A DNA stretch of 62,222 bases, filler included, from Chrysochromulina tobinii (GCA_001275005.1; 8 parts of 8 records of this genome joined end to end with filler, not necessarily neighbours in it), one strand, 5' to 3'. Numbered from the whole stretch's first letter, positions 11,045-43,673 are shown. Program-made: numbers and translations. Notes: a model not told the origin generated them from the letters alone.

Positions 11045-14000
11045 ATGGCCGACCGCGGCAAGCGCAAACGCGCCGAACCGTCGCACCTGTCGGAGGAGCA
11101 TGAGCCCGAGTCACCGATCAAATTTAAGCTTGCGACGCCCTCGGCCAAGTACCTCACGCGCACGGGCCGGCTGCGGCTGCCGGGCGACGAGCGCTGGCTC
11201 AGCTGCAAGCTGCTCTCTTACATCGGAGCGGACAAGCTCACATGCGAGGTCGAGCTCCTCGACGGTGGCGCAAGCAGTGGCGCTGCCGTCGCCGAGGCTG
11301 GCGGCGGACGGCGCATGAAGGTCAAGCTCTCGATGCAGCCACTTCACGCAGCGGAGGATGTTGTGTGGGCGGCCGAGGAGGGCGACGGGCCCACGAACGC
11401 GGCACTGCTGCGCGCGCATGGAGAGAGCGGCAGCGGCGGTCGCAGTGCCACGGACGTGGATGTGCGGCTGCAGGCCGGCTTCGTCGAGGGCCTCGTGCCC
11501 ATGCTCGTGTTCGCACCTCTCGGATTGCCGGAGGCGGAGGCGGAGGACGGGCACGTGCTCGCACTGAATCTGGAGAGCGGCAAGCACGTGTGGATCCGAC
11601 CCGAGGCATCGCGCCCACTTCTCGCGCAGATGCTCCGTCGGCGCACCTCGACCGCGCTGCGCAAGGCCACCGACGCGGCACTCGAGGCCGAGAAGGCCAT
11701 CAAGCTGGTCGAGATGCGAAATAAGAAGAAGGCGGTCGTGGGGCGTCGGCTGGCGGTGTACTGGCCGGACGACGACGCGTGGTACCACGGCACCGTCTCC
11801 TCGTGGGATCCGCAGACCGGCCAACACCACGTGCTCTACGACGACGGCATCGAGGAGGCGATCAACCTGCACGAAGAGGCCAGCCACTTCTTCGCGAGCG
11901 AGGCCGAGGAGGTCGCTTATGTAGAGTATTCGATGATGGGCTCCTGCCTGCACTGCAAGAAGCGAGGCTGGCTGCTGAAGGACGTTGTGTGCCCACCGGT
12001 GGCCGAGGCGCCCGCCGATGAATCGGCGGCGGCTGTCAAGGTGCTTCCCCCGGGATGGAGGGAGGAGCTGCATCAGGCCCCCTCGCGGACCTATTCCGTC
12101 TACCATGGACCGAATGGGGAGAAGGCACGCTCCATCGCCGAGGCCATTCGTCTGCATGATGCGGCGGGAGAGCCTGCTACGAAACGGCCCAAGCCGCCGC
12201 CGCCGCCGCTGCCGCCGGGCTTTGCGATGAAACCTGCGGCCGTCGAGGGCAGCGCCGTCGTGGGCAGCGCCGTCGTGGGCAGTGGCGAGCTGCCGGTACT
12301 CGCGACGCCCGCGGATGCGCCCATGACGGCGCTGCTGCCCACGCCCGGGGCGGCGGAGTCGATCTTCTGTTCCGTCTGCCACGGCGGCGACGCGGAGCTC
12401 GAGAACGACATCCTGATCTGCGACGGGCTCGGCTGCGGAAAGACGTTCCATCAGCGCTGCCACAAGCCGCCGGTGGACGAGGTGCCCGAGAACGAGTGGC
12501 TGTGCGCCGAGTGTGTGCGCTCCGGCAACCGGGTCGATCCCGCGGCCCTCGCCGAGATGGCAGCACAGCAGCAGGTGCTCGCGAAGCAGCGCGGGCTCGT
12601 GGCCGAAGCGGAAGAGCATTATGCAAGCTGGCTGCCCAAGCCCGGTTCGATGCGCGCGGCGATCATCGAGGCGCTGCGGGAGGGCATCACCGAGCGAGAC
12701 GAGATCTGCGAGTTCGTCACGAGACTGCCGGAGCATGCCAGCCTGCATCGCCGAGCGATCCTGGACTCCTGCGGCAAAGAGAAGGGTCGGGAGGTGCCGC
12801 TCTTCGATCAAGACGAGACGAGGTACAAGCTGACACGCGAGGGTCGCCTCGCTCTCGGGCGCGCGGAGCCCTCGGACCTGAGCGAGTGGCAGCAGTCCAA
12901 GGGATCCTTGGCAGCTCCCGCGCGCGTCGGCGGCTTCGACGGCGCGGGGGGCGACATGCTCATGTGTGGCAGCTGCCTCGACCGGTGCCACCTGCAGTGT
13001 CACTGGACGGCGCTCGAGAGTCGGAGCGACCTGTGGCCCAGCTGGAAGTGCCTCGGGTGCAAGCAGTGCGAGTCCTGCGGCGCGGATGGGACCAAAATTC
13101 GGCTGGCCATCTGCGACGTCTGCGACCGTGGCTACCACATCGGATGCCTCGACCCGCCCCTCAAATCGTTCCCTCAGCGCCACTTCAAGTGCCCCCAATG
13201 CGTCAAGTGCTCCTCTTGCGGAACCACCACCTCCAAGGTGTGGGGAAAGGACTACGACATGTGCGGCCCGTGCGAGAAGCAGTTCAAGATCGGCCAGTAT
13301 TGCCCGATCTGCCAACGCGCTCACCGTGCGGAGGAGACCGAAATGCTCCAGTGCGACAGGTAGGCCCCTGATGGCCCCTGATGGCCCCTGATGGCCCCTG
13401 ACGGCCCCTGATGGCCCCTGATGGCCTCTGATGGCCCCTGATGGCCTCTGATGGCCCCTGATGGCCTCTGATGGCCCCTTGATGGCCCCTTGATGGCCCC
13501 TGATGGCCCTCGAGCACCTCCTGATTCGATGTGCTCCCATGCGTCCATGCGACAGTTGCGACTTTTGGGTGCACCAGCGGTGCGATGGCACCCTCGATGA
13601 CCAGACGTTCAGCAGGCTCGTGGGCACCGACGAGTCGTATCAGTGCCCGAATTGCCGCGGCGAGCGTACGACCACACTGCTCCTCCAGACCCTCAGCCTG
13701 TGCGACAAGGAGGACCGCGATCGATTCTTCGCCGAGCCGGTCTCGATCGAGTACGCCCTCGCGACGCAGTACCACACCGTCGTCTCCGTCCCGATGGACT
13801 TCCGGACGATGAGGAAAAAGGTGGCCGCCGAGGAGTACGGCACCGACTTGCGCGCCGCCGTGGGCGCATTCCGTCACGACTTTGACCTCGTGTGCCAGAA
13901 TGCGATCACGTGGCACCGCCCGAATGAGCGCTGTCACATCGTTGCGCGCCGCATGCTCAAGTTTGGCACCGCGCTCCTCAAGTCCACCTTCCCGTGGTAT

Positions 14001-16187
14001 GAGCACGAGGGCACCAAAAGCGGCGTCAAGGGCACCAAAAGCGGTGCGGGCAGCGCCAAAAGCGGTGCGGGCGCCGATGGCACGGTGGGCGCGGGCGCAA
14101 GCAAGGGCGCCACGGGCGCCGCGGGCGCCGCGGGCGCCGCGGGCGCCGTGGCGAGCACTGCGGTGGACGAGCCTCCACTCGAATCGGCTTGGGATTACGG
14201 CGCCACCTTCTCCCTCCAGCCGGACGACGTGGGCGCTATGGAGCCTGACGTGTGCTTCGTGTGTGGTGGGCCGCCCCACTACGGCAGCGGGCGACTCGCC
14301 GAGGAAGAACTGCTACACTGCACCGTGTGCGCCGAGTGCTTCCACAGCTTCTGTACGCCGCTTCCCCAGGCGTCGCTCACGGAGCACACGCGGCTGACGT
14401 GGGTGTGCCCGCGCTGCCGACCGCCGCCGCCGCCGCTGCCGCCGCTGCCCGCACTGCCCGCCGATGCTTTGAGTAAGGACAAGGGTGTCGATCACGCCGA
14501 GATGCTAGAGCGTCGGCGACAGGCGACCATCGCGACGGAGACACGCTGCGCCAAGTGCGACAAGCTTCGACTCAAGGCGCGAGGAGGGGGCGCCGAGGGC
14601 GACGGCGGCGCTGAGGGCGAGGGCGGCTTCTTGAGCCTCTGGGTCTGCGCCGACTGTCGATGCTGTGAGAGCTGCAGCGCGATCCAGTCGCGTACTTGGT
14701 CCATCGACGGCCTCTGGTGCGGCGCCTGCATGCCCCAGGGCGAAAATGGCCAGTATTGCGGGATTTGCTCCAAGGTCTTTGACCATCCAGACGCTCCAGC
14801 GTCACAGGTGATGGTGTGCTGCGACGTGTGCCAAGTGTGGGTGCACACGAGCTGCGACAACATGGGCTACGAGGACTACCGGGGATACGATTCGGGCGCG
14901 CCCGGGTATGAACGGTACGAGTGCCCCGACTGTCGCAAGGGGCAGCACGAGCATGGGCCGTCGCTCTGGCGCATGATCGAGCGGCTCGTCGCTCAAACGC
15001 AGGCAAAGCGCGTCTCGCTCTCGCCCGACCTGCTGCGAGCGAGCGGGCTCGAGATCGGCGTGCACGAGCATCGCCAACGGTATAATTCGACACTTCGGTG
15101 GGTCAAGGAGCGCGGGCGGGCAGGGCTTCCGTGGGCCCAGCACTGGGCACAGGCTCTGACGATGGAGGCGGCGGCGGTGGCGGTCAAGACGGCCGCTGCC
15201 ATGGAGGCTGAAGCGAGGGCGCGGAGGGACGCGGCCGACGCGGCGAGGGCGGAGGCGTCCAGGGCGGCCAAGGCTAAGGCCAAGGAAGCGGCGGACAAGG
15301 CAGCAGAGGTCGGGACGGCGGCTGCAGTGGCACTGGCGCCGGCCGCAGCGACCACAGACGCGGCTGTGGCGCCCGAGGCGCCCAACGAGGATGAGGACGT
15401 GGCAATGGCCGAGAGCGTGCCGGCGGCGGATTCCCCCTCTTCTCCTGCTGCTGCTGCCGCCGCGGCTGACGCGCCTCCCCAGCCGCCCACAGACGATCCA
15501 TCGCCCTCTCCCCCGCACTCGCCTCCGGGCGACGGGGAGGACGAGGAGGACGGGGAGGACGAGGAGGACGGGGCCCACGGGGCCCACGGGGTCGGCGACG
15601 TTGTCGAGGACGACGACGGAGTGGCGGCCCACACGGAGGCGGAGGCTCCGATGAACATGGAGCCACCGGTAAGCGCCTGGACAAGCGCCGTCCCAAGCGC
15701 CGTCTCGAGCGCCTCACCCGCCCCATCGGCCTTACCCACCCCTCTCGTCGTCGCCGCCGCCACAGCCACGCCGCACCAGGCTGATAGCGCCTCGCAGCAG
15801 CAGCTGGCTATGGAGGCAGCCAGGGCCACAGCGGCGCTGGTGGCGAGAGGCGGTCACGGCGCGGCGCACGGCCCGGCGTCCGACATGGCGCCCCCCCCAA
15901 TCCACCTACCCGAACCCCCCGTAGCATCGGGCTACCAATGCCCCAACTGCCTACGCGCCTTCCCATCGGTCCTCGCTCTCGAGCAGCATGCACGTGCGTG
16001 CTCCGCCGTCTTCATCGGCGTCGCCGTCCCCGCTTCTGGGGGCAATGCGGCGGCCCCGCCCAGCCGCTCCCTGCCGCCGCCTCACCCGGCAAGGGCGGCA
16101 GCGGCAGCGGCGATGGCGGCGGCGGCGATGGCAGGTTCGGGAGCGCAGCCGCCCTTGCCGCCCGTGCCCGCTGCCACCGCCGCCGCC
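11045..16187 (+). CDS. Trithorax/MLL-like chromatin reader (Tudor, MBD-like, multiple PHD fingers, bromodomain, zinc finger), 3'-truncated
   Basis: Tudor VVGRRLAVYWPDDDAWYHGTV...VLYDDG; PHD CSVC...ILICDG..CGKTFHQRC...EWLCAEC; tandem PHDs; bromodomain FFAEPVS...YHTVVSVPMDFRTM...LVCQNAITWH. Removing intron 13360-13555 joins the two ORFs in frame (QCDS-CDFWVH). Confidence 0.88.
13360..13555 (+). mobile_element. 196-nt GT-AG intron of (ctgatggccc/t)n with an 8-nt junction duplication
   Basis: tgcgacag ends both the upstream exon and the intron. Confidence 0.85.
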
Positions 16188-16287
16188 NNNNNNNNNNNNN
16201 NNNNNNNNNNNNNNNNNNNNNNNNNNNNNNNTTAATTAATTAANNNNNNNNNNNNNNNNNNNNNNNNNNNNNNNNNNNNNNNNNNNN

Positions 16288-18948
16288 CCTTGTTGCTTTG
16301 GATGGCCTCGCAGACTGCGTTTACGCCCTCATCCTTGAGGCTGTTGGACGACAAATTCAGGGCCGTCAGCCCGCCATTGACGCCTACCATCTTGGCCACG
16401 TCCTTGGCTCCTGCTGACCCACCAATCTCGCTGTGGCTGATGTCGAGCTCCTTGAGCGTCGAGTTCTGTTCTAGTGCCTTGCAGATGGCTTTGGTGCCCT
16501 CCTCCCCCAACCTGTTTACGGCAAGGGACAGCTTCGTCAGCCCGCCATTGACGCTGATCAAGGAGGCGATCACAACCAAAGAGTCAACGCCAAGATTCTT
16601 GCGAGAGAGGTCGAGCGTCTCGACGGGGTCGGTGCCTTTGAGCTTCTTGACAGGGAGAGCAAACCCATCCAAGTTCACCTATGCATTAGGGACCTCCAAA
16701 AATCAGTGCAAGAGGGTGCACATCTGGGCTGAGGGAGCACAGCTGAGCACAGTGTACCTCCGTCAGCGAGCCATTGACGCTGATCAAGGAGGCGATCACA
16801 ACCGCAGAGGCAACGCCAAGATTCTTGCCCGAGAGGTCGAGCGTCTCGACAGTGTCGGTGCCTTTGAGCTTCTTGACAGGGAGAGCAAACCCATCCAAGT
16901 TCACCTATGCATTAGGGACCTCCAGAAATCAGTGCAAGAGGGAGTACATCTGGGCTGAGGGAGCACAGCTGAGCTCAGCGTGCCTCCGTCAGCGCGCAAT
17001 TGACGCGCAGAGCGTCGGCAATGGCCGTGATGCCCTCCGCAGTGTAGGTGCTTCTATTCACTCTGCAGAGTGAGTTGTTGGAGAGGTCCAGGCTCGTCAG
17101 CACGCCTGTGACAATAACCTGTGACAGGTCCGACGCCAGCATGATCGCATCGGGTGGCTGGAGGCTCTTGTTGCAGAAGTCAGCGGTGGCCTGGTCACGC
17201 TGGATGCCGCAGAGCGAGATACCCTTCTGCTTCGCGACTTCGGCGAGCATCTTGGTGGACTCCACATCAAGCTGATTGCCCAGGAGGTTGGCCACCGTCA
17301 GCGCGCTGTTGACACCAAGCATGTCTGCCACATGCTTAGCGCCTACTTCTCTGCCAATATTGTTGTGACCAGACAGATCGAGCTCCTTGAGCGTCTTGTT
17401 CTGTTTGAGAGCCTCGCAGATGGCCTTGGTGCCCTCCTCCTTCAACTTGTTCCACGCCAGGGACAGCTTCGTCAGCGCGCTGTTAACGCCAAGCATGCCT
17501 GCCACATGCTTGGCGCCTGCTACCCCTCCGATATTGCTTCCCACATAGCCAGACAGATCGAGCTCCTTGAGAATCTTGTTCTGTTTGAGCGCCTCGCAGA
17601 TGGCCTTGGTGCCCTCCTCCCCCAACTTGTTTCCGGCAAGTGAAATTTTGGTCAGCCCGCCATTAGCAGGAATGAAATAAGAAATGAGCATGGCCGCAGG
17701 CCCACGAAGCCCCTTTTCACGCAAGTCCAGCTCCGTCATGGTGTCCTCCCGCATGTGCTGCACCGGAATGCCGCATGCCACACCTGAGCCCGCACAGGCG
17801 ACGGCTGTGATGATCAGCTTCAACGGCGCCTCTCCGTCGCCTGATATGCAGCTGTCGAGAGCAGCCTTAGCAGTACCACGAAGCAAAAGAAAGCTAGCAA
17901 AAGGTTCTGGGGCACCAGCACCAAATGCACCGAAGCCGCCGAACGGGCCGCCACCAAAATGATTCGCCTCCTGGACGGCCAGATTCGCGGCCCGTACTTT
18001 CGCCACGTCCACCACAAAGCCGTAGCCATGGAGGCGCGCCAGCCCTGGCAGCATCCGCCCCGCGAGGGCAGTGTCCCAGGGACGGCCGGCCTCGATGAGC
18101 AGCTCAACGTCCAGGTCGGTGATCTCTTCCAGATGTGTGGGTGCCGGCTGCCCGCGGCCGCGGCACAGGCGCGAGCAGAGGACACGCCGTGACAGCGCAC
18201 GCCAAAACCGATTCACGCCCTTGAGCTCGCACAGCGTGGCCACGTCCACCATTCCCAGAGCAGCCTCCCTGGCATCCGTAGTGGCTGGCACCCCCGAGAG
18301 CGAGGGCTGCCGCAGAGGTGCGGGTGGTGCCGTGGAGCTGGCCGCGCCGTGCTGCTGCAGCGCCTCGTAGCCTTCTGGCAGAAAAGCCGACTCGGCGAGT
18401 GCCGCCTCGAGCTCGGCGCCTTCAAAGTCGCTACCCGCGCCAAGCAGCGCACGGAGCTCGTCAGCATTCTTGCCGTTGACCCGGGAAGCGATGACAGACT
18501 GATTGTGCTTGAGTAGCATAGGGGCATCCAGAAACAGGGCGCCCTCGACGTGTTCCACGAGCTGCGATAGCGAATGCTCGTCAGAGCTCGGCGACAAGGG
18601 ATTGCTGGCGTAACCCTCGTACCGGAGCTCTTCAAACGACTTGTTTTGGCATTGCTCCATCCGATGCATGAGTGCGCCCAGCATCTCCGGCATGCGAACC
18701 AGCGCGCGAAGCGTCGAGGCTGTGACAACGGGCACCGGATACACGCCGTCCTCGGAGCTGGCATCGTCCATGAGATCCTTCAAATGACCCGCGAGTCGAG
18801 CCACCTCGCGCGACATCGTGACCTCCTCTCCGTCTCGCGCTCGCACGCGGATTGGCTCGTCATCACGTGTGGCCTTCTTCGCCGCGGGCGCCTCTTCCTG
18901 CTCCTCGGCCGGCGATCCAGCGACGATTGTCTTGCCCGAGAGGCTCAT
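16288..18948 (-). CDS. Skp1-like + F-box-like + RNI/NLRC3-type LRR protein, 3'-truncated
   Basis: Skp1-like IRVRARDGEEVTMSREVARLAGHLKDLMDD and GALFLDAPMLL...IASRVNGKNADELRALLG; F-box-like LGMVDVATLCELKGVNRFWRAL; LRRs such as LTKLSLAWNKLKEEGTKAICEALKQNKTLKELDLS. Introns at 16905-16983 (GC-AG) and 16679-16757 (GT-AG). Confidence 0.85.
16535..16992. repeat. 226-bp exon+intron tandem duplication in the LRR region
   Basis: A 147-nt exon (NLDGFALPVKKLKGTD...) plus a 79-nt intron is present twice, nearly identical. Confidence 0.92.
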
Positions 18949-19201
18949 CGTTGCTTACACGCCGTAAGGCAACCACACAGTTGCTTTCGCGGGGCGTCCG
19001 AGCTTTTTGCCCGCGGGAAGTCCGTGCAGGAAGTCCGTGTGCCACGAGACCGGAACGTGTGCCGAAGTTGGCCTTTGTGAAACCCTTTTTTTCTCAGATA
19101 CCGGTAAGTTCCTGAAGAAAAACCACACTTGAAGGTCATCTTTCCCCTTCACAGGTTGGTGTCGTCCCCGTCGTCGCAGGCATCAGGCCGCACGGGGCCA
19201 A

Positions 19202-22200
19202 GTGCCTCGGACCTCGAAGACAGGAGAAAGAAGCAAGAGGCAGAAGCTCACTCAACTCCTTCCAAAGAGTCGCTCCGCCGTCCTTGGGCTGCACACGATT
19301 GTGAGTACCGGAGCGCTTGATGGTAGTTTCGACTCTCTTCCCCCAAACTACCGGAATGAAAACTTTTTCACAGCCTGGGCGTTCGGGATGTCGGACGCCG
19401 ACGACGGCACCCGTGCAGCCAAGGCGCGCTGCCGGCGCAGTGCAAGCCGCTCGGCTGTCGATCGGCGCGCGTGCGTGTCTGCATACCTGGCCAAGAAGGC
19501 GATTGGCTCCAATGACAGCGTCGCGGAATATGTAGCCCGAAGCGGGCCCCGCCGCTGTGCGACCCCCTCTGACTCTATGAGTGATGCAGATCGCGTGGAG
19601 ATGGCACGTTGCTTGCGAGCCATGGCGCCACCCACGGCGGGTGCCGCCCTCGCAATGTCCACCCTCGTTCATCAGCATTTGTGGACGCCTCCGGCAGCGC
19701 CGCCGCCGCAGTGCAAGCCGCTCGGCACCTCGGCTACGACGACAACGGTAAGGGGTGCGTCTTCAGCCTCCGCCGAGTGCGTGAAGAGTGCCGGGATGGC
19801 CTCGTGGTCTGTCTCGGGGCTTGCGAGCGAGAATGGCTCCGAGTGCGGCCGTCATTGGCAGGGCACGGCCGAGGTGCGCTGCCTTTTTGCGGACCGCGAC
19901 GTGCTCTTCATTGGCAATAGCGTGATGCGTCGTCAGGTGTTCACACTTCTCGACTTGCTCGCTGGGCCAGCGGCGCATCGGCTCAGTGTGAACGGTGGCG
20001 AGACCGTGAATGTGAGCACGGCGGACGGCACGCCCGCGATGGCGCCGAGTGAGCTCCTTTCAAGCACAAGGCTGTGGGATCTTGATGGTCACGAGCATGG
20101 GTACCACGCCGCACAGCTGCTGACCATCGATCTCGCCACCGGGGCCCACCGCTTCCACCTTCCCCACAGGTGATTGCAATTGATGGCCACTGATGGCCTC
20201 TGATGACCACCGGGGCCCACCGCTTCCACCTTCCCCACAGGTGATTGCAATTGATGGCCACTGATTGCCTCTGATGACCACCGGGGCCCACCGCTTCCAC
20301 CTTCCCCACAGGTGATTGCAATTGATGGCCACTGATGGCCTCTGATGACCACCGGGGCCCACCGCTTCCACCTGCCCCACAGCGAGCTATGTGGCGTCGA
20401 GAGGGCTTATGCCAACTTCAACGCGGGCCGAGCGCGCCAATGGTGGTCCCCTTCCGCACAGGTGATTGCCACTGATTGCCTCTTGATTGCCATTGATTGC
20501 CACTGATGGTCCCCTTACGCACAGGTGATTGCCACTGATTGATGTCCACTGATTACCGCTGACCGTGCGCGCCACCGATCTCGCCGATCTCGCCGATCTC
20601 GCTGATATGACCGACTCGTCGATCTCGTCGATCTCGTCGACCAGATCGACGCGCAGTGGCTGAGCTCGAAGTGGCGAGATCGTGAGTGGCGGCCGCTCGT
20701 GTCAATGACTCTCGGATGGGATTCCACACGAGCACCCGTCGCCGTTACATCGACGGGTGCCGCGCAGCATGCAAGTGCTCGCCACGGCGCCGACGCGACG
20801 GGTGCAGCCGCGAACGCGAGCGAGCGAGCGCGAGCATGCCTGGAGCAGCCATCGGTGATTTGGGCGGGAAGTCATCGTGCGGGCTTAGTGCCCGGCGCGG
20901 CGCTTCCAAATAAGGACCTGCCTAATCAGGACCTGCCTCATCAGGGCACATCCCGTGCTGAGGCCGTGCGCCGTCAGCTGCTGGACGCTGTGCGCGCGCA
21001 CCTGGTGAAGCTCGATCCAACGGCCGCTGAGTGGGTGGGCAATCTCACCGTCCATCTCGACGAACGCCCAGCATGCAAGCGCTCACCACGGCGCCGTGTC
21101 CCTTCCCCACAGGTGGGCAATCTCACCGTCCATCTCGACGAACGCCCAACACAGCGCGCACCCAGCAGGGCGGCGGAGTCTACGCCCCCCCGCGCCCGTG
21201 CTTCCCACGCCCGAGCTTCCCCGAACGCATGGGTGGTCTTCCCTACCTACCATGGAGAGCGCCAGAAGTTCAATGGGTATCAGTGCTCATTCCCACTGAT
21301 GGCCACTGATTGCCACTGATTGCCTCTGATGGCCTCTGATGGCCTCTGATGGCCTCTGATTGCCTCTGATTGCCTCTGATTGCCTCTGATTGCCTCGTGG
21401 TATCAGAGCTCATTCCCACTGAGATGCCCGCTGCATGCCCTTCTGATTGCCTCTGATGACCTCTGATGACCTCTGATTGCCTTCCTCATCAGGTACTGCG
21501 GCGGTGCCATGCCGCCGGGCGAAGTCTGTAAGTGCACTACCACCGTGCCGCCCACGTGCTCAGACCGGCGCGCGTCGTGCTACGGCAAGCGGCTGTGCGC
21601 GCCGCTCGCGCCCGGCTCGGCGCGTTTCGTCGAGGCGGCTCGCGGGCTGGCCGCTGCGCTCTCATCGCCGTCGGCCGAATCTCGAGATCGCGAGCTCGCG
21701 CGGGGAGATCGCGAGCTCGCGCGGGGAGATCGCGAGCTCGCGCGGGGAGACCTCGAGCTCGCGATCTCCGTGTCCCGCGTGCGCGTCTCTCCCTTGTATG
21801 ACGACTGCTGGGAAGGGCGCGACCGGTGTATGGGGTACGCTGATTGCCTCTGATGGCCTCTGATGGCCTCTGATGACGGCTGATGTCGGCTGATGATGGC
21901 TGATGACGGCTGATGACGCGTGATGGTCTCCCTCATCAGGCAACGACCGTGCCACGAGCGCCTACGCAGCCCAGCATGCAAGTGCTCACCACGGCGCCCC
22001 CTTCCCCACAGGCACCGACCGTGCCACGAGCGGCTGGATGCGGCGTACATCTGCCGATCGACTGCACTGCTCTGTCCCCGTACGTGCTCGTGGCCTCTGA
22101 TTGCCACTGATTGCCACTGATGGCTCTGTCCCCGTACGCGCTCGTGGCCGCCGGGGGTGCATGCAAGTGCTCACCACGGCGCGGACGCGCTCGTGGCCGC

Positions 22201-23185
22201 CGGCCCTCAGCCGTTGGGGGTCTGCATGCAAGTGCTCACCACGGCGCGCCCGCACTTCCCCACAGGCACGCGCTCGTGGCCGGCGGCTCTCAAGCAAGCC
22301 AAGTCGTGGATCCCAGCTGCCCATCCCTCGGCGTCGCTCCTCTACCTCTATGATGGGCAGGTGATTGCCGTTGATTGCGACGGAGGCCCCCTCACTGCCC
22401 CCCATCTGCCACTGTTGGCTTCGGCGTCCCTCCATTACCTCCATGATGGGCGCCATGATGGGCAGACGCAGAATGCGATGGATGCGTCTCACTGATGACC
22501 ACTGATGACCTCCATTGCATCCATGATGGGCAGACGCAGGATGCAATGGATGCGACGTTTCGAAGCTGGGCGCCTCCCACGATTGGGTACGGCTCGCATG
22601 CAATCATCCTCGGGCCGCAGGTGATTGCCTTTGATGATCACTGATGGCCACTGATTGCCACTGATTGCCACTGATGGCTAAATATTGCCTCCGGCTCGCA
22701 TGCAATCATCCCCTGGCCGGCAGTTCGCCAACACACGCAGCGTCGGCGCGATGCGTCGCTCTCTCAGCCTGATGCGAGCCGCTCTCACTCATGCCGATCT
22801 ATGCCTGGGCCAACGTACGCTCGCCGTCTTCCGATCACCCGCGTTGGGGGTCTGCATGCAAGCGCTCACCACGGCGCGTCCGCACTTCCCCACAGGTACG
22901 CTGGCCGTCTTCCGATCTCCCGCGTTCAACTTCGACCCGGTGAACACCTTCCACCAGCAGGCTGCCTTTGCGCAGCGCATGCGCCCGATCGTCGAAGAGT
23001 TCGGCGCCGTCTTCGTCGATCTATTCCCAGCGACGCTCCGGGCGGCCTTCCCACCCCCATCGGTGCCCGACGCTGAGCAGATTGCCATCCGATTCGACCG
23101 GAACAGCGCGTTCCACTACCTCGACGCTGGGCGCTATCTCATGGCGCAGATCCTGCTCCACGTCCTCCACTTAATCTCCACTTAA
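19202..23185 (+). CDS. SGNH/PC-esterase-like (O-acyltransferase/esterase) protein, many introns
   Basis: N-terminal block CLFADRDVLFIGNSVMR and C-terminal DRNSAFHYLDAGRYLMAQILL. About ten repeat-derived introns lie between 20170 and 22895; exon limits are partly uncertain. Confidence 0.65.
20170..20382 (+). repeat. Intron made of three 71-bp units (core + duplicated upstream exon end)
   Basis: gtgattgcaattgatggccactgat...caccggggcccaccgcttccaccttccccacag x3 = 213 nt. Confidence 0.88.
21035..21112 (+). mobile_element. Family-B intron (gcatgcaag.gctcaccacggcgc...ccccacag) with a 36-nt exon duplication
   Basis: gtgggcaatctcaccgtccatctcgacgaacgccca opens both the intron and the next exon. Related cores occur at ~21973, 22159, 22224, 22854 and 51863-51932 (minus strand). 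Confidence 0.85.
22815..22895 (+). mobile_element. Family-B intron with a ~31-nt exon duplication
   Basis: gtacgct(c/g)gccgtcttccgatc(a/t)cccgcgtt is duplicated around the core gggggtctgcatgcaagcgctcaccacggcgcgtccgcacttccccacag. Confidence 0.85.
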
Positions 23186-23744
23186 TCTCCACTTAATCTC
23201 ATGGCGCAGATCCTGCTCCACGTCCTCCGACTGCTTGCACAAGGCTGAGCCGTGCATAGATCTCCACTCGAGATCTCCACTTAATCTCCACTCGCGAGAT
23301 CTCCACTCGCAACGGCCAGAATGACCAGTGGCACACGTGCGCGCGCGGCCCCGCCGCACGAGGGCATCTTGCCCCCTGAGACAAGTTTCGGACGGGATTC
23401 TTGCGTGGTCCATTTTCCATTCTGCCGGTTGTCAATGCTAGTCGCGACTTTGAAACAGGTACAGGACGGTTCGTCAACCGCAACCCCTAAAGGCACACGA
23501 CGGCGGCGAGACTCGTGAGGCGAAAGGTGAGTTGGTGCCTTCTCGGGTCCCGACGTTCCTCAACCTCAACCTCCAAAAGCCGTTTCACACAGAGGGTGTG
23601 TGATAACGTGTATTATCAGAGCTGAAACCGAATCCCAAAACTGCACCCAAAAGCAATCAACAAGTTACACTTCGCAACATTCCTGGTATCGCCTGCCGCA
23701 GTCCGTGCCTCTAAGGAGCTCCGAGCGAGCGGACAAGAAGGGCG

Positions 23745-26700
23745 ATGGCGAGCAGCTCCGATACCTTGCCGCTTCTGCCAAACGGCGTGGAGCGCAGCAA
23801 CTGGAAGCCACCCAGGGAGGGGCGCGGCCCGCACAGGCCAGCCGACCGGCCAGACGAGTCAGAGGGCCGCAACTCTCTGCTCGATATAGCCAACCAGCAG
23901 CGCATAAGCTGGTGGTCGGGCGCGGTTGCAGGAGCCATCGTAGGTATATTTGTGGGTGGTGTGCTTGGTAAAGCGGTGCAGCCACTCATTTACGGCCCGA
24001 TGATACCCGCCAACCAGTGCTGCGCATGCCCTCAACCGCCGCCACAACTACCGCCTCCCTTGACACCGCCGCCGTCGAGCCCACCGCCACCGTCACCGCC
24101 GCCGCCTCGGCTGCCGCCACCTCGTACTCCGCCGTCAGTGCCGCCGCCCCTCACACCGCCAGCGTCACCGCCGCCGCCAAGCCCGCCGCCGCGGGCACCG
24201 CCGCCACTACTACCGCCGCCTTTGCAACCGCCACCGTCGAGCCCACCGCCATCGTCACCGCCGCCTCCTTCTCCGCCGCCACCTCGTACTCCGCCGTCAG
24301 TGCCGCCGCCCCTCACACCGCCAGCGTCACCGCCGCCGTCAAGCCCGCCGCCACGGGCACCGCCGCCACTACTACCGCCGCCTTTGCAACCGCCACCGTC
24401 GAGCCCACCGCCATCGTCACCACCGCCTCCATCTCCGCCGCCACAGCCGCCGCCAAGGCCGCCAAGGCCGCCGCCGCCAAGACCGCCGCCGCCGCCGCCG
24501 CCCGAGGTTGCTCTGTGCGGCACCCTCTCGGCAGACACGTTCCTCACCGCGGGTCCAGTCTGCGTTCTCACTTGCCAGGTGTTCGTTCCCTCGGGCATCG
24601 TCCTGAGTATCCAGCAGGGCGTCACCATTTACGCCTCGCCGGTGGCTGCGGATGGCGGCGGTGCGCCCGCCCTGATCATCGAGAAGGGCGGCTCTCTGCT
24701 CGCCGAGGGCTCTGCGACTGCGCCGATCACCTTCACTGCCTTCAACCCCACCGAGTCGTCCTCGTCGTCGGTGTCGAGTGACTCTTCCAGCGCGGATACC
24801 GTGCTCGAGAAGCGCGGCAAGTGGGGCGGCCTGATCCTGCTCGGCAACGCGCCGACGAATAGGGCGACCACCACGACAATCGAGGGCATCACAGCGCAAA
24901 CGTACGGCGGCACCAATCCGACCGACTCGTCGGGCTCCATGCAGTACGTGCGCGTCTGGCACGGCGGCGCGGTCGTGGGCGCGAACAACGAGATCAACGG
25001 CATCACCTTCGGCGGCGTGGGCTCCGGCACCGTCGTCGACCACTGCGAGGTGGCGTACAGTGCGGACGACGGCTTCGAGTTCTTCGGCGGCACCGTGAGC
25101 GTCAAGTACCTGTCGGTGCTCTTCGCAGGCGACGACGGCTTTGACACGGACCAGGGCTACATTGGTAAGGGCCAGTTCCTTTTCGTGATCGAGGGCCTGG
25201 GTGGCGACCACTCGATGGAGATCGACTCGGGCATCGGCTCGAATCAGGACGTGACCCCGCGCTCGCACCCTGCTTTCTACTCGTTCACCTTGATCGGCGG
25301 AGGCACCGGTACTGGCGCGCGCACGGGCGAGCTGATGCACATCAACGACGGCACGGGTGGCAAGTTCGGCAACGGCATCCTAGCTCACCCGCACTTGGAC
25401 GGCCTCCTCTTCGAGGACTGTGGCTCGATGAGCTACACGCAGACGCTTCCGGCGGCCTCGGTCAGCATTTCGAACCCCGGATACTTTTACTTCTCGGCCA
25501 ACAACATCATCGACACGGCGACTGCTTCGTCGCAGTTCGCTCTGCACACAGGCACCACCACCTCTTGCACACCCGTGGGCACGTGGACGGCTGAGTTTGG
25601 TGCCCCCGGCTTCGTTGCGGTCGCCACCACTGACCTCGCGGAGGGCTCCGCCACCTTCAACCCTCTGCCGTCCCCCACCGGCGCGGCGTGCACGGGCGCC
25701 AAGGACGTACCACCCAACGGCGACACCTTCTTCTCGGCGGTGAGCTGCAAGGGCGCGTTCGGCACCTCGACGGACAACTGGCTCGGCGGCTACTCATGGC
25801 TCGCGTGCAGCGGCAGGATGGCTGGTGCCACATGCACTTCCAGCGCTGCGAGAGCGGCCCTGACGCCGCCGTTCGTGCCGCTGCTTTCGAATGTCACCTT
25901 GCTGTCGAGCAAGTACTCTTCCAACACGGCCCTCGGCACGAAAATCTCGTACATTCTTGCCTCCCAAGTCCTCGTGTCGGCAACCCTCACGATCCCTGCT
26001 GGCACCACCTGTTTTGCGCTGCCCAACGGCGTTGCCGCTCCAGCACTCGTGGTCTTGAAGGGCGGCTCGATCAGCGCGTCGGGCACGTTCTCGATGCCGA
26101 TCACGTTCACGTCCGTGCTTGCGGAGTCGGCGCTCGTGAGCTCGGCCACCGCCGTGACGGACTCCAACGAAAACGCCATCACGCTCGGCGAGCGCGGCAA
26201 GTGGGGCGGGCTCATCCTGCTCGGCAACGCGCCGACCAACGTGGCGACCACCAAGCAGATCGAGGGCATCACCGGCCCCACCTACGGTGGCAGCAACCCG
26301 ACCGAGTCATCGGGCACCCTGCAGTACGTGCGCGTGTGGCACGGCGGCGCGATAGTGGGCGCGAACAACGAGATCAACGGCATCACTTTCGGCGGCGTCG
26401 GCTCCGGCACGACGGTCGCGTTCTGCGAGGTGGCGTACAGTGCGGACGACGGCTTCGAGTTCTTCGGCGGCACCGTGAACGTCAAGTACCTGTCGGTGCT
26501 CTTCGCGGGCGACGACGCCTTCGACACGGACGAGGGCTACGTGGGCAAGGGCCAGTTCCTGTTCGCGATGCTCGGCGCTGTGGGCAACCACGGCGCAGAG
26601 ATGAACTCTCTGTATGGGAGCATGCCACGCTCGCACCCGGCCTTTAACGGCATGACCATCGTGGGCGCCGGCGCCCTCTCGACGCGCGTGAGCAACGCGA

Positions 26701-28239
26701 TGATGTGCCTGCGCAAGGGCACGGGCGGCAAGTTCGGCAACTTGATCCTCGCCAATGTCGCGACGCACCCTGGCATCCGCATCGATACCTGCAGTCACAG
26801 CGGCAGCGCCGCGCCCTCCATTGTGTCAGTGCTGCCAGCGGCATCGGTGTCGCTGGGCACGTACCTGTTCTTCTCTTCGAACAACATTATCGAGAGCCCC
26901 ACCGTCGGCTTCGTAATTGTGCCGCCATGCACCGGCACGGCGCCGGCCTTTGTGAACACGGATCCGCTCATGTCAGGAGGCACGTTCATTGAGACCAGCA
27001 CGGTTCCGATCGAGCCGCGCCCCGCGTGCGGCTCGGCCGCGTACTCCAGCGTTGACCCGGTGCCCAACGGCGACTCCTTCTTCAGTGCGACCACGTACAA
27101 GGGCGCGTTCGGCAGCGTCAACTGGCTCGATGGCTGGTCGTTCTTCAACCTACTCAACCGTCGAGGCTTTGTCAACGCCAGCTTCACCTGCCCCCCGCTG
27201 CCGCCGCCGCCGCCCTCGCCCTCACCGCCGCTGGCACCTTCGCCCTCGTCACCGCCGCCGCCAAGCCCGCCACCGCGGGCACCGCCGCCACTACTACCGC
27301 CGCCTTTGCAACCGCCACCGTCGAGCCCACCGCCATCGTCACCACCGCCTCCTTCTCCGACGCCACCTCGTACTCCGCCGTCAGTGCCGCCGCCCCTCAC
27401 ACCACCAGCAACACCACGACCTGTGCTGCCGCCATCCCCTGTGCGGCCGCCACCCCGGACTCCTGAACCCCCTAGAACTCCGCCCCCCCCTGTGCTGCCG
27501 CCACCCCGGACTCCGCCCCCACCTGAAACTCCGCCTCCACTGCGTCCTCCGCCTCCGCTGCGTCCTCCGTCGCTGCCTCCACCAGTGCCATCGCCGCCAC
27601 CTCCATCGCCGCTGCCTCCACCTCCATCTCCAGCGCTACCGCCTCCACTATCACCGCGTCCTCTGTCGCCCCCGCCACCGCGGTTGCCGCCTCTGTCACC
27701 GCCTCCACTTCCGCCGCCGCCACCTGCTATGCCGTCGCCGCCACTGCCACCACCACCGCTCATACCACCACCTCCGCCGTCGCCCTCTCCTCCACGGGCA
27801 CCTTCGCCGCAGCCACTGCCACCACCGCCGCCGCCGCCGACTCCACCGCCGCCGCCATCGCCGCTGCCGCCGTGCCCACCGTTAAACCCGCCACCGCCAG
27901 ACCCACCGCCACCACCTGAGCCGATGCCGCCATCGCCGATGCCACCAGGGCTGCCGCCCCATCCACCACACGCTCCCAGCTTTTTGAACGTCATGAGCTC
28001 CGAGTTCGATTGGATCCTGCAGAAAGCAATGGGCATGGGTTCAATTATTCTATTGCTAATCCTATTGCTTGCCTTTGGATGTCTTTGTCATTCGGTCATT
28101 TCCTTGTGTTGCGTATGGTTGAAGACCTACTGCAACTGGGCGGAGGAGAAAAAGAAGAGCCCGAGCCCGGAGGAGAAAAAGAAGAGCCCGAGCCCGGAGG
28201 AGAAAATGAAGAGCCCGGAGGAGAAAAAGGAGGAGAAAA
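23745..28239 (+). CDS. Membrane-anchored surface protein: TM, Pro-rich stalk, two bacterial-type beta-helix domains, Pro-rich stalk, TM; 3'-truncated
   Basis: GKWGGLILLGNAP...SSG.(M/L)QYVRVWHGG...NEINGITFGGVGSGT...DDGFEFFGGTV occurs twice. Hydrophobic segments GAVAGAIVGIFVGGVLG and IILLLILLLAFGCLC; C-terminal EEKKKSPSP repeats. Confidence 0.85.
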
Positions 28240-33555: not shown

Positions 33556-36500
33556 TTGGCACTGTCTGCTCTTCAACGCAATTATCCCGGCCTTGCCCCG
33601 TCTCGCCTTCGACGGATTTGGAGTCGCCTTGCTGGGAATGCGCAATTCCGCGGGTATCAGGTTGGATGGGCTGTCGTTCGAGGACACGGGAGCGACCCGC
33701 TGATCGCCGTCGCCAAACTTCTCGTGTCTTCCCGGGAAGTGTGGGTAGATGAACTCGCTGCTACACGAGATGGCTCGGCTGCGGCGCGCTGGGCTCTCTT
33801 GTCGGCACTCGAATCCGCGCTCGAGCTGCGCCTCACCGCTCCCGAGGCTGTTGTCCGCCTGCGTGTGGCTCTCGCACCCTCTCGAGACTCGCGAGGTGCG
33901 CACGGCATGTACCGTAACCAACTGCACCTCCGCGACGGCGTACCAGAGCTCCCCGGGCCGTGGCAGCACGATTGTACTGAACCTGGATACGTTCTCATGC
34001 ATGGACTGGTTGGCGAGCTCGTTGCTCGCCTCTGCGTGGTACTATCTTCGAGACCTAATGCTCCGGGGACGCAATTCTACTGGCGCACGTCGTGCTCGAT
34101 TCCCGCTGCTTTCTCGCTTGCCTTTGCGTCCACAGCTTCTCTTCTTGCTCCTATCGGTACCGCTGCTTCGCCCGATGGGGCTGCTGCTTCATGCACGCCT
34201 CCTGATGCCGCGCCGTGCGACGCTCTCGACCGGAGTGTGCTTGTACCTCTTTCATCCGTCACTCCATCCGCACCTGCTGGTTCTTCTCGTCCACCATTCG
34301 ATGTTGATCCTGCTGCTGGTCTCCTCACTCCACCGCCCCGAGGGCGCTCTGGCACGGCATGGGAAGATGAGGGCGCGCTCCTTCACGCCATTGTCGCTGC
34401 AAGCTGCGAACCTTCTTCCGCGTGCCACGCACCGCCCACTGATGACGACCCAACCGACGTACGTCCGCCGCCGCCTCCTCTCTCACCGTCCCTTCCACGT
34501 CTTCGCTTCGACACCCTGCCTTCCTCCCACCCGTCGACTCCCACCGTCGATCCTGCGCCCTCCACGTCCACCGGTACTCAGGCGCTGGTCGCGCCCCTGC
34601 TGCCCTCTGCGCCGGTGCTGCCTCCTCGCGGCGAGTCTCTCCTTGTATGGAACGCGGCCGGGTGGTGGTGCGGAGACAGCGAGTCGGGCTCCGACGAGCA
34701 CCAGGCTATCGTTGCCTCTCGATATGACGTGCTTAACCCTTTGCTTCGCGGACGCGACGCGCCGACGTACATCGTGCTCAACGAGATCAGCGGATCCATG
34801 CGAGATTCGGCTCATCCGCGTGGTCTTGGTGCGTGGCTTCGTGCGGCCGGGTATGGCCACTTCTTTTATCCGGGGGGGTCGACTACGCGACAGCGCAGCG
34901 ATGGGTCCACAGGGGCCACTGGCGGCGTCCTCCTCGCGTGGATGCGCAGCGAGACGAGCGCGTGCGGCTCGCCCCACTTTGATCCTAAGTCCATGACGAT
35001 CGCTCTCGACTTTCGCCATCGGAGCTGTGCGCGAGACGCTCCACCTATGCGACTGCTCGCCGTCTACGGGGCGCATCGGCGGAACGGACGGGAGCAGGCG
35101 CTTCGAGCCATCACTCGGCACGTTACGCAGACTCGGGGGTGCCTGGTCGCGGGCGATCTCAACGTTGTTCCTAGTTCTACGTGGAAATGCCGCGCTCGGC
35201 GAATGACCGTCGCCGACGAGGAATTTGCTGCCCTTACGGACGGCGGCGCACTTCTGGATGCCGGTACATCGATGGTCCATATTGTTGATCTTGGTCTCGA
35301 TCACGATCGTGGACAGTTTTCTCGGGCGCACTGGACGGCGACTCTTGCTGATGGGTCGCCACAGGGCACGGCGACACTCGATCATGTTCTCACCGCGGGC
35401 TTGGAGCGTGGTCGGTGGCAGCGCCGTGCGGCATGGTATGCCTTTGGTGACGATGGCAAGCTCCTATCGGATCACATGGTCATTGTCGTGGACCGTGCCT
35501 CTCGCTCGGTTACCTCTGACGACCGCGGCGTGCATCGGCCGCCGCGCTTTCTGGTGAGCCGATGGTCCGGGCGCCAGCGAGCTGCCTTCATCGCCTCTTT
35601 TGAGCGCAATCTACAACAGCTGCGTGCTGGCGCGTGGCGCGCCTGCCCGGGGGAGGCTCGACAATCTCTCGCCGAGGGTGCTACGGCTATCACTCAACTG
35701 GTGTCTCTTCTGAATGTCGCCGCCCTCGCCGCGGAGGGCTCCGTGCGGAGCGATCCTCGAGGCGATCGGCTTCGTCGTGTGCATGACGGTGGAGGCGGCC
35801 TTCAAGGGGTTAAGGCGCAGCTCCAACGCCAGCAAGGCATTCTACGGCGTGTTAGAGTTGCCCGTCTCGCCGTCGAGCATGCTGCTGCATCGCTCGCGGC
35901 CTTGCGACACGATGTGCTCGCTCATCTCCGTCTTCGCGCGGAACTTCAACTACAGAGCGCCTTGGCCACCGAGCGGGCGCTTTATACACCCACCTCGGCC
36001 ACGTACCTTGCTCGCCACGACCGTAGCCTCCATCGTGCTCTGCTCAGGCCGTATCTTGGACCGCCCGATCAAGCTGCTGCCGTGCGCTCGTCTGCGGCCG
36101 CCTCTCGGCTTCTTCGCGACATTACCTACTACAGCCATCAACTTCGAAAGCTTGAGCGACGGGCCGATCGCCCGATCTGGCAGGGGATTGCCGATGCGAT
36201 GGCGGGTGGCGGGCGCGACGCCATCGTTGCTGCGATGAGGCGGCCGACGCAGCGCGATGGTTCCCACGGCGGCATTATGGGCTTGTACCGCAATGACCAG
36301 CCGATGGTCAACCGCAACGGCGCTCAAGTTCCAGGCGAATGGATTAGCGAACCCTCGGCGGTACGGGCGGAAGCGGGCGCCATCTACCGACACATCGATG
36401 ATGCCAACTTTGGTGCTGGTACCGTGGACGCTCGCGTGATTGGGTTTCACAACGCCCTGTGTCAGCCCCCGTGGCCCGAGCTTCCCGGCCACGACGGTTC

Positions 36501-41948: not shown

Positions 41949-43673
41949 ATGGACGCGAGTGGTGGTAGCTTCGTGGCGGCCAATGCGATGGTCGACGCGC
42001 TCCGTCGCGGCGACGAGGCCAAGGCCGAGGGCCTCATCGACAGGGTGACAGGAGCGGCCCACCTCGGCCTTTGCCTGCTTCGTGCATGTGAGACTGGTCA
42101 CCCTAAGTGCACGAAGCTGCTGCTCGCCGCCCACGCCGCCGTCGACCATGCAGACAGCGACGGCGTCACGCCTCTGTTCGCCGCCTGCGTCAAAGGGCGC
42201 GGCGACTGCGTGCAGCTACTGCTCGCCGCCCACGCCACCGTCGACCAGGCAGACAGCGACGGCAACACGCCTCTGATCGCCGCCTGCGACAGAGGCCACG
42301 GCGTCTGCGTGCAGCAGCTGCTCACCGCCCACGCCGTCGTCGACGAGGCAGACAGCAACGGCTTCACGCCTCTGATCGCCGCCTGCGACAAAGGGTACGG
42401 CGACTGCGTGCAGCTGCTGCACGCCGCCCACGCCGCCGTCGACCAGGCAGACAGCGACGGCAACACGCCTCTGTTCGCCGCCTGCGGCAAAGGCAACGGC
42501 GACTGCGTGCAGCTGCTGCTCGCCGCCCACGCCGTCGTCGACCAGGCAAACCGCAATGGCTTCACGCCTCTAATCGCCGCCTGCACCAAAGGCGACGGCG
42601 GCTGCGTGCGGCTGCTGCTCGCCGCCCACGCCGCCGTCGACCAGGCAGACAGCAACGGCAACACGCCTCTGATCATGGCTTGCGACAAAGGGCGCGGCGA
42701 CTGCGTGCGGCTGCTGCTCGCCGCCCACGCCGCCGTCGACCAGGCAAACACCGACGGCATCACGCCTCTGCTCATCGCCTGCGACAGAGGCCACGGCGGC
42801 TGCGTGCAGCTGCTGCTCGCCGCCCACGCCGTCGTCGACCAGGCAGACAGCAGCGGTACCACGCCTCTGTTCGCCGCCTGCGTCAAAGGGCGCGGCGACT
42901 GCGTGCAGCTGCTGCTCGCCGCCCACGCCGTCGTCGACCAGGCAGACAGCAACAGCCGCACGCCACTGTACGCCGCCTGCATCAAAGGCAGCGGTGACTG
43001 CGCGCGGCTGCTGCTCGCCGCCCACGCCGTCGTCGACCAGGCAGACAGCAGCGGTACCACGCCTCTGTACGCTGCCTGCGACAAAGGGTACGGCGGCTGC
43101 GTGCAGCTGCTGCTCGCCGCCCACGCCGCCGTCGACCAGGCAGACAGCGACGGTACCACGCCTCTGTACGCCGCCTGCGACGAAGGCCACGGCAAGTGTG
43201 TGCAGCTGCTGCTCGCCGCCCACGCCGCCGTCGACCAGGCACACAGCGACGGCGTCACGCCTCTGATTGCCGCCTGCGATGAAGGCCACGGCGGCTGCGT
43301 GCGGCTGCTGCTCGCCGCCCACGCCGCCGTCAACCAGGCAGCCTGTGACGGCGTCACGCCTCTGTACGCCGCCTGCTTCAAAGGCCACGGCAAATGCGCG
43401 CAAATGCTGCTCGCCGCCCACGCCGCCGTCAACCAGGCAGCCAGCAACGGCGTCACGGCTCTGATCGCCGCCTGCAACGAAGGCCACGGCGACATAGTCA
43501 AGGTGCTCGTGCATGCTGGCGCACGCACCGACATGCGATGCGGTGCGGCCACAGCCCTCAATCTCGCAGAGGCCCACGGCCATACCGCCATCGCAACATT
43601 CCTGCGCAGCCGGCGCCGCGCACCTGCGACGATCGCTGCGGTCGCTCCGGTGTCGAGTGCTGAGCGTGCGGCT
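41949..43673 (+). CDS. Ankyrin-repeat protein (~16 repeats), 3'-truncated
   Basis: 33-aa/99-bp units GxTPLxAACxxGxGxCVxLLLAAHAxVDQAD. Confidence 0.95.

What the first reader, a model, noticed from the sequence alone, without database searches (positions are those of the whole stretch)
17000..18948. Skp1-like, F-box-like and LRR domains in one polypeptide
Seen: both halves of a Skp1-like domain, an F-box-like motif (~18180-18260) and then LRRs. Established: Skp1 and F-box/LRR receptors are normally separate SCF subunits. Inference: a pre-assembled Cullin-1 adaptor or decoy with a diversifying LRR, possibly acting in immunity.
Basis: partly seen in the sequence, partly recalled or inferred. Interest (0 to 1): 0.7.

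Follow-up and report, generated by a model that had tools for sequence, protein, structure and literature searches.

The report
One-chain Skp1–F-box receptors in algae
A freshwater alga gene joins, in one protein, the Skp1 adaptor, the F-box and the leucine-rich-repeat parts that are normally separate pieces of the cell's protein-disposal machinery; it belongs to a large family with fast-changing repeat tails that likely works as a set of ready-made target receptors, though binding to the cullin scaffold is untested.

Summary
Confirmed and extended. ORF 18948-16975 (-) is exon 1 of a Chrysochromulina-type haptophyte gene: a full-length Skp1 domain (profile E 2e-17; confident model superposes on F-box-bound Skp1, rmsd 2.8 A over 138 residues), a linker, an F-box, a conserved ~135-residue domain of unknown fold, then LRRs that run on through two predicted introns to the contig end. 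The F-box scores nothing in Pfam alone but is supported through relatives (51% identity to a Pfam-positive F-box protein; the family profile hits solved F-boxes). The fusion is a family: 252 held proteins carry Skp1 plus F-box, up to 10 loci in one assembly, named members in C. tobinii, C. parva and Prymnesium polylepis. The module is under purifying selection; tails are shuffled and swapped (RI-type LRR, BspA LRR, ankyrin, HEAT). Best reading: one-chain Cullin-1 substrate receptors, a BTB-like design rebuilt from SCF parts (0.55). Cul1 binding is untested; the Skp1 helix-5 Asn and F-box Pro are mostly lost; immunity is speculation. This copy is a 5'/3' mosaic of two paralogues, probably a misjoin; both parents share the architecture. 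Not found in ten paper searches or earlier in this scan.

The parts
16984..18948 (-). Exon 1 of the gene (the unspliced ORF reads on to a stop at 16975 inside predicted intron 1; 657 aa, P0001)
18376..18855 (-). Skp1-like domain, residues 32-191, with the C-terminal helices H6-H8
18532..18537 (-). Leu138-Phe139, aligned to the Asn-Tyr pair of Skp1 helix 5 (Cul1 face): Asn lost, aromatic kept
   Evidence: alignment; family counts; coordinates
18286..18375 (-). Linker between Skp1 and F-box, residues 192-221, low model confidence; median 25 aa between the profile blocks in the family
18163..18285 (-). F-box, residues 222-262, three predicted helices; canonical Pro absent, following acidic position kept (Asp225)
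17755..18162 (-). Conserved third domain (D3), residues 263-398, with a variable insert at about 17985-17890; fold not identified
16984..17754 (-). Ribonuclease-inhibitor-type LRRs in exon 1
16905..16983 (-). Predicted intron 1, 79 nt, GC-AG
   Evidence: not seen spliced in RNA contigs
16758..16904 (-). Predicted exon 2, 147 nt LRR cassette; second copy of a 226-nt intron-plus-exon tandem duplication
16679..16757 (-). Predicted intron 2, 79 nt, GT-AG
16288..16678 (-). Predicted exon 3, further LRRs, cut by the end of the contig
   Evidence: continuation read in L001
18113..18242 (.). 130-nt tract in which the window switches from the L002-type 5' part to the L001-type 3' part
16188..16287 (.). 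Gap with an artificial spacer joining two contigs; the PHD/bromodomain gene beyond it is not shown to be a true neighbour

Best explanation
The gene encodes a Skp1 domain, an F-box and LRRs in one chain, and likely acts as a ready-made substrate receptor of a Cullin-1 ubiquitin ligase: the F-box is predicted to dock on its own Skp1 domain, the joined module would bind Cul1-Rbx1, and the variable tail would pick the target. Shown: the domain order, the family, purifying selection on the module, variable tails. Predicted: Skp1 fold with helices H6-H8 placed as in F-box-bound Skp1, and one compact Skp1-F-box-D3 unit. Inferred: binding in cis, Cul1 binding, ubiquitylation of tail-bound targets. 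Such a receptor would need no free Skp1, which would let a large, fast-changing receptor set expand without competing for Skp1 or being displaced by viral F-box proteins; that last step is speculation.
For: Skp1 homology over the whole chain; model pLDDT 85.8, pTM 0.83 over 370 residues; Z 12.8, rmsd 2.8 over 138 residues, model 1-161 on Skp1 1-160 of an F-box complex. F-box: 13 of 33 relatives hit F-box-like at E<=1, best 2.8e-6; 9 of 12 PDB hits of the family profile fall on the motif and 8 of the 9 are named F-box proteins, best E 0.011; 51% identity over 91 residues to P0228, which passes the Pfam F-box cut-off. The same module carries RI-LRR, BspA-LRR, ankyrin (P0217) or HEAT-like (P0246) tails, as F-box receptor families do. 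38 of 38 non-redundant loci are open through the module, dN/dS 0.28-0.50, lowest in the F-box. On the Cul1 face: helix 2 and strand 3 are well kept (Leu56 53 of 61, Pro71 41 of 61), the helix-5 aromatic in 52 of 61, the F-box acidic position in 55 of 61. Yeast Skp1 with the helix-5 Asn changed to Tyr stays in SCF (PMC11648922, passage).
Against: No Cul1 binding was tested. The helix-5 Asn is kept in only 15 of 61 and is Leu here; changing that Asn-Tyr pair to Lys-Lys abolishes Cul1 binding in human Skp1 (as cited in 10.1101/2023.05.13.540652, passage). The F-box Pro is present in 1 of 42 fused forms against 5 of 21 Skp1-less forms. Cul1 helix 5 inserts between the Skp1 C-terminus and the F-box N-terminus (PMC10156175 section 12), just where the linker arrives, so the linker could block it. 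The Asn of the strand-3 motif is not conserved. The window's own F-box has no Pfam hit. Skp1-fold domains diverged to about 21% identity are often used outside SCF.
Confidence: 0.55

Rival explanations
1. The Skp1-F-box unit has left SCF and serves as a folded docking cap for another partner (a lineage-specific cullin, Cul3, or a non-ligase complex) on a variable sensor protein.
For: Loss of the helix-5 Asn and F-box Pro; family-specific conserved surface residues such as Lys243 (61 of 61), Glu186 (61 of 61) and Trp45 (40 of 61); BTB-plus-3-box/BACK chains align from the Skp1 domain into model residues 214-236; divergent Skp1 paralogues bind lineage-specific cullins in trypanosomes (10.1101/2023.07.24.550360, passages); worm Skp1 proteins act outside SCF (10.1101/2023.05.13.540652, passages).
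Against: Helix 2, strand 3 and the helix-5 aromatic, which form the Cul1 contact, are kept; the best fold and sequence matches are Skp1, ahead of BTB domains.
Confidence: 0.25
2. A decoy or inhibitor: it binds Cul1 (or viral F-box proteins) without ubiquitylating targets, damping or guarding SCF during infection.
For: A virus of Chrysochromulina parva encodes six F-box proteins and four E3 ligases (PMC12085832, passages); the family is multi-copy and variable.
Against: A decoy needs no varied target-binding tail, yet tails are long, swapped and variable at exposed positions; in the model the F-box site of Skp1 appears already filled in cis (inference). No infection data were examined.
Confidence: 0.12
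3. A neutrally amplified repeat-gene family whose N-terminal module is a passenger without function.
For: Many near-identical copies and frequent exchange among paralogues; dN/dS of the Skp1 parts is only 0.43-0.50.
Against: 38 of 38 loci open, dN/dS well below 1 in all five blocks; order kept down to about 30% identity and across genera; transcript-derived members exist (P0307).
Confidence: 0.05
4. The fusion is an assembly or gene-calling artefact.
For: This copy is a mosaic of two loci with the switch inside the F-box.
Against: Both parent loci, L001 and L002, have the whole order in one frame; 158 of 263 proteins held at that point have all five blocks in order; an 815-nt contig from a poly(A) library spans Skp1 C-terminal helices, linker, F-box and D3.
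Confidence: 0.03

Closest known systems
SCF receptors of the FBXL type (Skp1-Skp2, ASK1-TIR1, Skp1-FBXL17)
   Same: Skp1 fold with F-box-binding helices, an F-box, then an LRR solenoid.
   Different: Skp1 and F-box lie in one chain; Skp1 is diverged to about 21% identity; helix-5 Asn and F-box Pro mostly lost; an extra conserved domain sits before the repeats; each receptor carries a private Skp1.
BTB-domain adaptors of Cul3 (KEAP1, SPOP, KLHL, NPR1)
   Same: Adaptor and receptor merged in one polypeptide (PMC4403949, passages); BTB-plus-3-box chains align from the Skp1 domain into the F-box region of the model (Z 7-9).
   Different: Here the parts are a true Skp1 homologue and a true F-box homologue, not BTB and 3-box; sequence matches go to Skp1 and F-box proteins. 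The single-chain design looks convergent (inference).
Lineage-specific Skp1 paralogues (worm SKR proteins, trypanosome Skp1.2-1.4)
   Same: Diverged, duplicated Skp1 domains with possible new partners (passages).
   Different: Those are described as stand-alone Skp1 proteins; no F-box or repeat tail in the same chain was reported in the passages read.
Chrysochromulina 'protein nlrc3' / 'nod3 protein' LRR proteins (database names)
   Same: Several members carry these names, and one is named 's-phase kinase-associated protein, partial'.
   Different: The names come from the LRR or from Skp1 alone; no NACHT domain was reported by Pfam in the members scanned, and no name records the Skp1-F-box fusion.

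Membership tests
Skp1 family | BTB/POZ core (S1-S2-H1-H2-S3, H5) | tested here: met
   Profile E 2.3e-17; Z 11.2, rmsd 2.9 over 117 residues to 1ldk_D, the best of 48,161 chains; Pfam Skp1_POZ above cut-off in relative P0187, not in P0001.
Skp1 family | C-terminal F-box-binding helices H6-H8 | tested here: met
   Pfam Skp1 E 0.00068 on the segment, below cut-off, above cut-off in P0140; model aligns to Skp1 residue 160.
Skp1 family | Helix-5 Asn-Tyr pair that contacts Cul1 | tested here: inconclusive
   Leu-Phe here; Asn 15 of 61, aromatic 52 of 61.
Skp1 family | Small stand-alone protein that binds many F-box proteins in trans | tested here: not met
   Fused to its own F-box and a tail.
F-box proteins | Three-helix F-box with the L..L...L..V...W pattern | tested here: met
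   Leu231 57, Leu239 60, Leu242 58, Val245 55, Trp249 57 of 61; helices at model 195-201, 207-213, 218-233; homology to Pfam-positive P0228 and to solved F-boxes at E 0.011-1.8.
F-box proteins | Leu-Pro at the start of helix 1 | tested here: not met
   Pro in 1 of 42 fused forms, 5 of 21 Skp1-less forms. Many accepted F-boxes also lack it (recalled).
F-box proteins | F-box fold match in a structure search | tested here: inconclusive
   The result lists were filled by the Skp1/BTB domain; the F-box was not folded alone.
SCF (CRL1) substrate receptor | Binds Cul1-Rbx1 through Skp1 and F-box | not tested
SCF (CRL1) substrate receptor | C-terminal substrate-binding repeat domain | tested here: met
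   RI-type LRR; BspA LRR, ankyrin, weak HEAT in relatives. Substrate binding itself untested.
SCF (CRL1) substrate receptor | Drives ubiquitylation of a substrate | not testable with these tools
   Needs biochemistry.
BTB-Cul3 adaptor | BTB domain of the Cul3-binding type followed by 3-box/BACK | tested here: inconclusive
   Fold shared (Z up to 10.2) but no BTB Pfam family among the families shown and no BTB chain among the sequence hits shown; closer to Skp1.
NLR immune receptor | NACHT or NB-ARC nucleotide-binding domain | tested here: not met
   No such Pfam family in P0001 or among the families shown for 78, 58 and 27 members.

The most novel reading that the evidence does not exclude
Prymnesiophyte algae have rebuilt the single-chain BTB/Cul3 receptor design from SCF parts, giving an expanded family of self-contained Cul1 receptors whose LRR tails are reshuffled by exchange of intron-bearing repeat cassettes and selected for new surfaces: an intracellular, ubiquitin-based recognition repertoire against viruses that cannot be disabled by viral F-box proteins competing for Skp1.
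Probability: 0.2. Interest if true: 0.85.

Novelty: new variant of a known kind. Interest (0 to 1): 0.62.

Why it matters
SCF ligases are defined by a shared Skp1 and exchangeable F-box proteins. A natural, expanded family in which each receptor carries its own Skp1 shows that this split can be undone, offers a living parallel to how single-chain BTB receptors may work or have arisen, and gives natural test cases for CAND1-driven exchange and for which Skp1/F-box residues Cul1 really needs. The rapidly varying tails make it a candidate recognition system in bloom-forming algae under heavy virus pressure. The proteins are hidden in databases under LRR names.

Tried and rejected
No whole genome is held, so paralogue counts are lower bounds from capped scans. 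Pfam on the window's F-box and Skp1 N-half alone: no hit. First model from 78 close relatives: pLDDT 67, no Foldseek match at E<=0.001, VIA list filled by LRRs; replaced by the model from 110 diverse relatives. ESM Atlas: first hit an unnamed haptophyte cluster at 0.92, named hits under 0.9, leads only; no usable hit for P0131 10-215. Viral contigs: 249 pattern matches, none confirmed as a relative. No fold match was found for D3, but it was not folded alone, so nothing follows. RNA contigs show no joint at the predicted introns among the joints listed, and one covers intron 1; no contig bridges the mosaic junction; lack of cover upstream of the ATG is shared by the unlabelled run X15, so it says nothing. 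The first LRR-parsing script had a pattern error and was redone; the first splice calculation was off by one and redone. Skp1-less forms fall in at least 5 places of the tree, but without their DNA I cannot tell true loss from truncated gene calls. Paper searches without a report of a natural Skp1-F-box fusion or of this family: (listings and abstract starts only); some searches were for interface residues and the BTB parallel. The C. tobin genome paper has no occurrence of Skp1, F-box, LRR or cullin in its main text (PMC4580454, word search); its supplements were not read and may list these genes. A paper on the F-box proline and Cul1 binding is recalled but not held.

Full report
Source and gene. 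The region is eukaryotic. The closest named homologues are from Chrysochromulina tobinii, so the window is most likely a Chrysochromulina-type haptophyte; no genome is held. The window is made of contigs joined by gaps with a spacer; the gene lies on the contig 16288-28239. The ORF 18948-16975 gives 657 aa. A 226-nt tandem duplication at 16532-16983 consists of a 79-nt intron and a 147-nt exon; with a GC-AG and a GT-AG intron the frame continues in LRRs to the contig end. The same 3' sequence in locus L001 gives, with one more intron, an open 1006-aa product. These introns are predictions; no RNA joint confirmed them.

Skp1 domain. Alone the match is weak (Pfam Skp1 E 0.0027; yeast Skp1 E 0.0028). 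Family profiles match solved Skp1 chains from end to end at E 9e-10 (21 sequences) and 2.3e-17 (58 sequences). At E<=1, Pfam Skp1 hit 34 of 58 diverse members and Skp1_POZ 9 of 58. A model of residues 30-399 from 110 sequences has pLDDT 85.8 and pTM 0.83. Foldseek gave 52 matches at E<=0.001, the listed rows all from Skp1-containing entries. VIA-align gave Z 12.8, rmsd 2.8 A over 138 residues, through Skp1 residue 160, to Skp1 in an F-box complex; in the unbiased search Skp1 came first (Z 11.2), BTB domains next (Z 10.2), a gap of about one unit. An earlier model from 78 close relatives was poor (pLDDT 67; no match at E<=0.001).

F-box. The window's motif has no Pfam hit, and only 2 of 78 close relatives hit F-box-like at E<=1. 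Support comes through distant relatives found. Some lack Skp1 and begin with a canonical Leu-Pro F-box. P0228 passes the Pfam F-box cut-off and is 51% identical to P0001 231-319 (E 1e-24). Of 33 members of alignment A3, 13 hit F-box-like, best 2.8e-6. The A3 profile had 12 PDB hits at E<=10: three LRR proteins on its tail and nine on the motif, eight of them named F-box proteins (GID2, FBXW8, FBXO22, FBXW19, FBXW21), best E 0.011. P0217 carries Skp1 (E 1.5e-4) and F-box-like (E 6.9e-5) hits in one chain, both just under cut-off, followed by ankyrin repeats; it aligns with P0001 over 33-263. Each line is modest; together they make the F-box assignment firm.

Family. One search found 183 proteins among 7,993 candidates, one search found 259 among 1.84 billion representatives, one search found 274. 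With profiles built from the family itself, 158 of 263 proteins held had all five blocks (Skp1-N, Skp1-C, F-box, D3a, D3b) in order, and later 252 of 350 family proteins had both Skp1 halves and the F-box; these include alleles and re-assemblies, and reduce to 61 at 80% identity (from 213). Named members: C. tobinii (P0012, P0048, P0054, P0068, P0094, P0446, and partial P0089), C. parva (P0450), Prymnesium polylepis (P0145) and a transcript-derived protein (P0307). Tails are RI-type LRR, BspA-type LRR, ankyrin or weakly HEAT-like; BRCT, PFU and SAP domains are added in some. Skp1-less forms need at least 5 changes on the tree of 64 rows; fused looks ancestral, but truncated gene calls cannot be excluded.

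Selection and diversification. All 38 non-redundant loci tested are open through the module; pooled dN/dS is 0.43 (Skp1-N), 0.50 (Skp1-C), 0.28 (F-box), 0.36 and 0.32 (D3). Tails differ in number and order of shared repeat types and introns (50 rows; the parser misses units). L042 and L060 share both flanks at 99% but differ over about 1 kb inside the LRR tail, which one misjoin cannot explain. In 29 tail units of the 28-residue class, pN at exposed strand positions is 0.60 against pS 0.35. In 120 dereplicated units taken from anywhere in the loci, which may include neighbouring LRR genes, pN exposed is 0.63, pS overall 0.40, ratio 1.46-1.72 by bootstrap, while other free positions have pN 0.28. 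These are uncorrected all-against-all values among related units in a GC-rich genome: suggestive of diversifying selection, not proof.

This copy is a mosaic. The window matches L002 at 99.9% over 8.9 kb upstream and has no difference from it in the gene down to 18113; it has no difference from L001 from 18242 to 17601, and the 98.35% identity to L001 over 18950-16288 is accounted for by the differences upstream of 18243. The switch lies in a 130-nt shared tract in the F-box. Three more mosaics (L009, L016, L018) are each seen once, all in NODE-named assemblies. I put an assembly misjoin at about two in three, real recombination at one in three; no contig bridged the junction. Both parents have the full architecture, so the finding stands.

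Expression. An 815-nt contig from a poly(A) library (24 differences, so an allele or paralogue) spans 17881-18668, across the Skp1 C-terminal helices, linker, F-box and D3. Contigs from RNA libraries can hold DNA, so this is weak; the transcript-named P0307 has the whole order.

Mechanism. The compact, confident model with H6-H8 placed as in F-box-bound Skp1 suggests docking in cis (inference; I could not inspect coordinates, and the likeness to solved Skp1-F-box pairs may drive the model). For Cul1: Skp1 helix 2 and strand 3 straddle Cul1 helix 2, and Cul1 helix 5 inserts between the Skp1 C-terminus and the F-box N-terminus (PMC10156175, section 12 read). In 61 representatives helix 2 and strand 3 keep their pattern, the helix-5 aromatic is kept in 52 and its Asn in 15. 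A double Lys change of that pair abolishes Cul1 binding (10.1101/2023.05.13.540652, passage citing earlier work), while Asn to Tyr in yeast leaves SCF intact (PMC11648922, passage). The F-box Pro is kept in 1 of 42 fused forms, the next acidic position as Asp in 37 of 42; changing that Pro stabilised fungal SconB (PMC5029927, passages). That the acidic position contacts Cul1 is recalled. The evidence is mixed, hence 0.55 for a Cul1 receptor, 0.25 for a cap with another partner, 0.12 for a decoy. The link to immunity rests only on the variable tails and on six F-box genes in a C. parva virus (PMC12085832, passages).

Comparison and novelty. It works like a BTB/Cul3 adaptor in design (adaptor and receptor in one chain; PMC4403949, passages) but is built from Skp1 and F-box homologues. 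It is not a canonical Skp1 (not stand-alone), not an NLR (no nucleotide-binding domain), and not yet shown to be an SCF receptor. Searches listed no report of a natural Skp1-F-box fusion or of this family (listings and abstract starts seen); the C. tobin genome paper does not mention these terms in its main text (supplements not read); most subscription journals are outside the library. PMC13237083 and PMC4675558 were seen as passages and not used. This scan had no look-alike and no finding with all the words. Verdict: real, a new variant of a known kind, interest 0.62.

Noticed in passing
window 16188-16287 and six other gaps (5733, 28240, 30982, 43674, 54174, 58123): The window is a string of contigs joined by N runs with an artificial spacer; genes across a gap are not shown to be neighbours.
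   Followed up: yes
window 11045-16187 (+): Chromatin-reader gene(s) with PHD fingers, weak Tudor and MBD hits, and a bromodomain, cut by the gap.
   Followed up: no
window 41949-43673 (+): Long ankyrin-repeat protein cut by a gap.
   Followed up: no
window 33556-41784 (+): 2742-aa ORF with one endonuclease/exonuclease/phosphatase domain (E 4.7e-6) and no other Pfam hit at E<=0.01; could be a retroelement-like or secreted protein.
   Followed up: no
window 55648-57960 (+): 770-aa ORF with two OmpA-family stretches (E 1.7e-25), a bacterial-type domain in an algal assembly.
   Followed up: no
window 23745-28239 (+): Very long ORF (about 1500 aa) with internal repeats and no Pfam hit.
   Followed up: no
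window 19153-19338: A 190-nt stretch just upstream of the gene has an 86% copy about 2 kb downstream of the gene in L002-L004.
   Followed up: no
window 16984-16905; L001, L002: The same short intron recurs with particular LRR cassettes across paralogues, with GC or GT donors, so repeats are duplicated together with their introns.
   Followed up: partly
L081 2833-4875, L083 1102-3195, L082 1380-4244: Giant-virus metagenome contigs encode full-length cullins; the L081 protein is about 40% identical to stramenopile Cul1.
   Followed up: partly
proteins P0228, P0235, P0254, P0263, P0196: Skp1-less members keep or regain the canonical F-box Leu-Pro, in three separate parts of the tree.
   Followed up: partly
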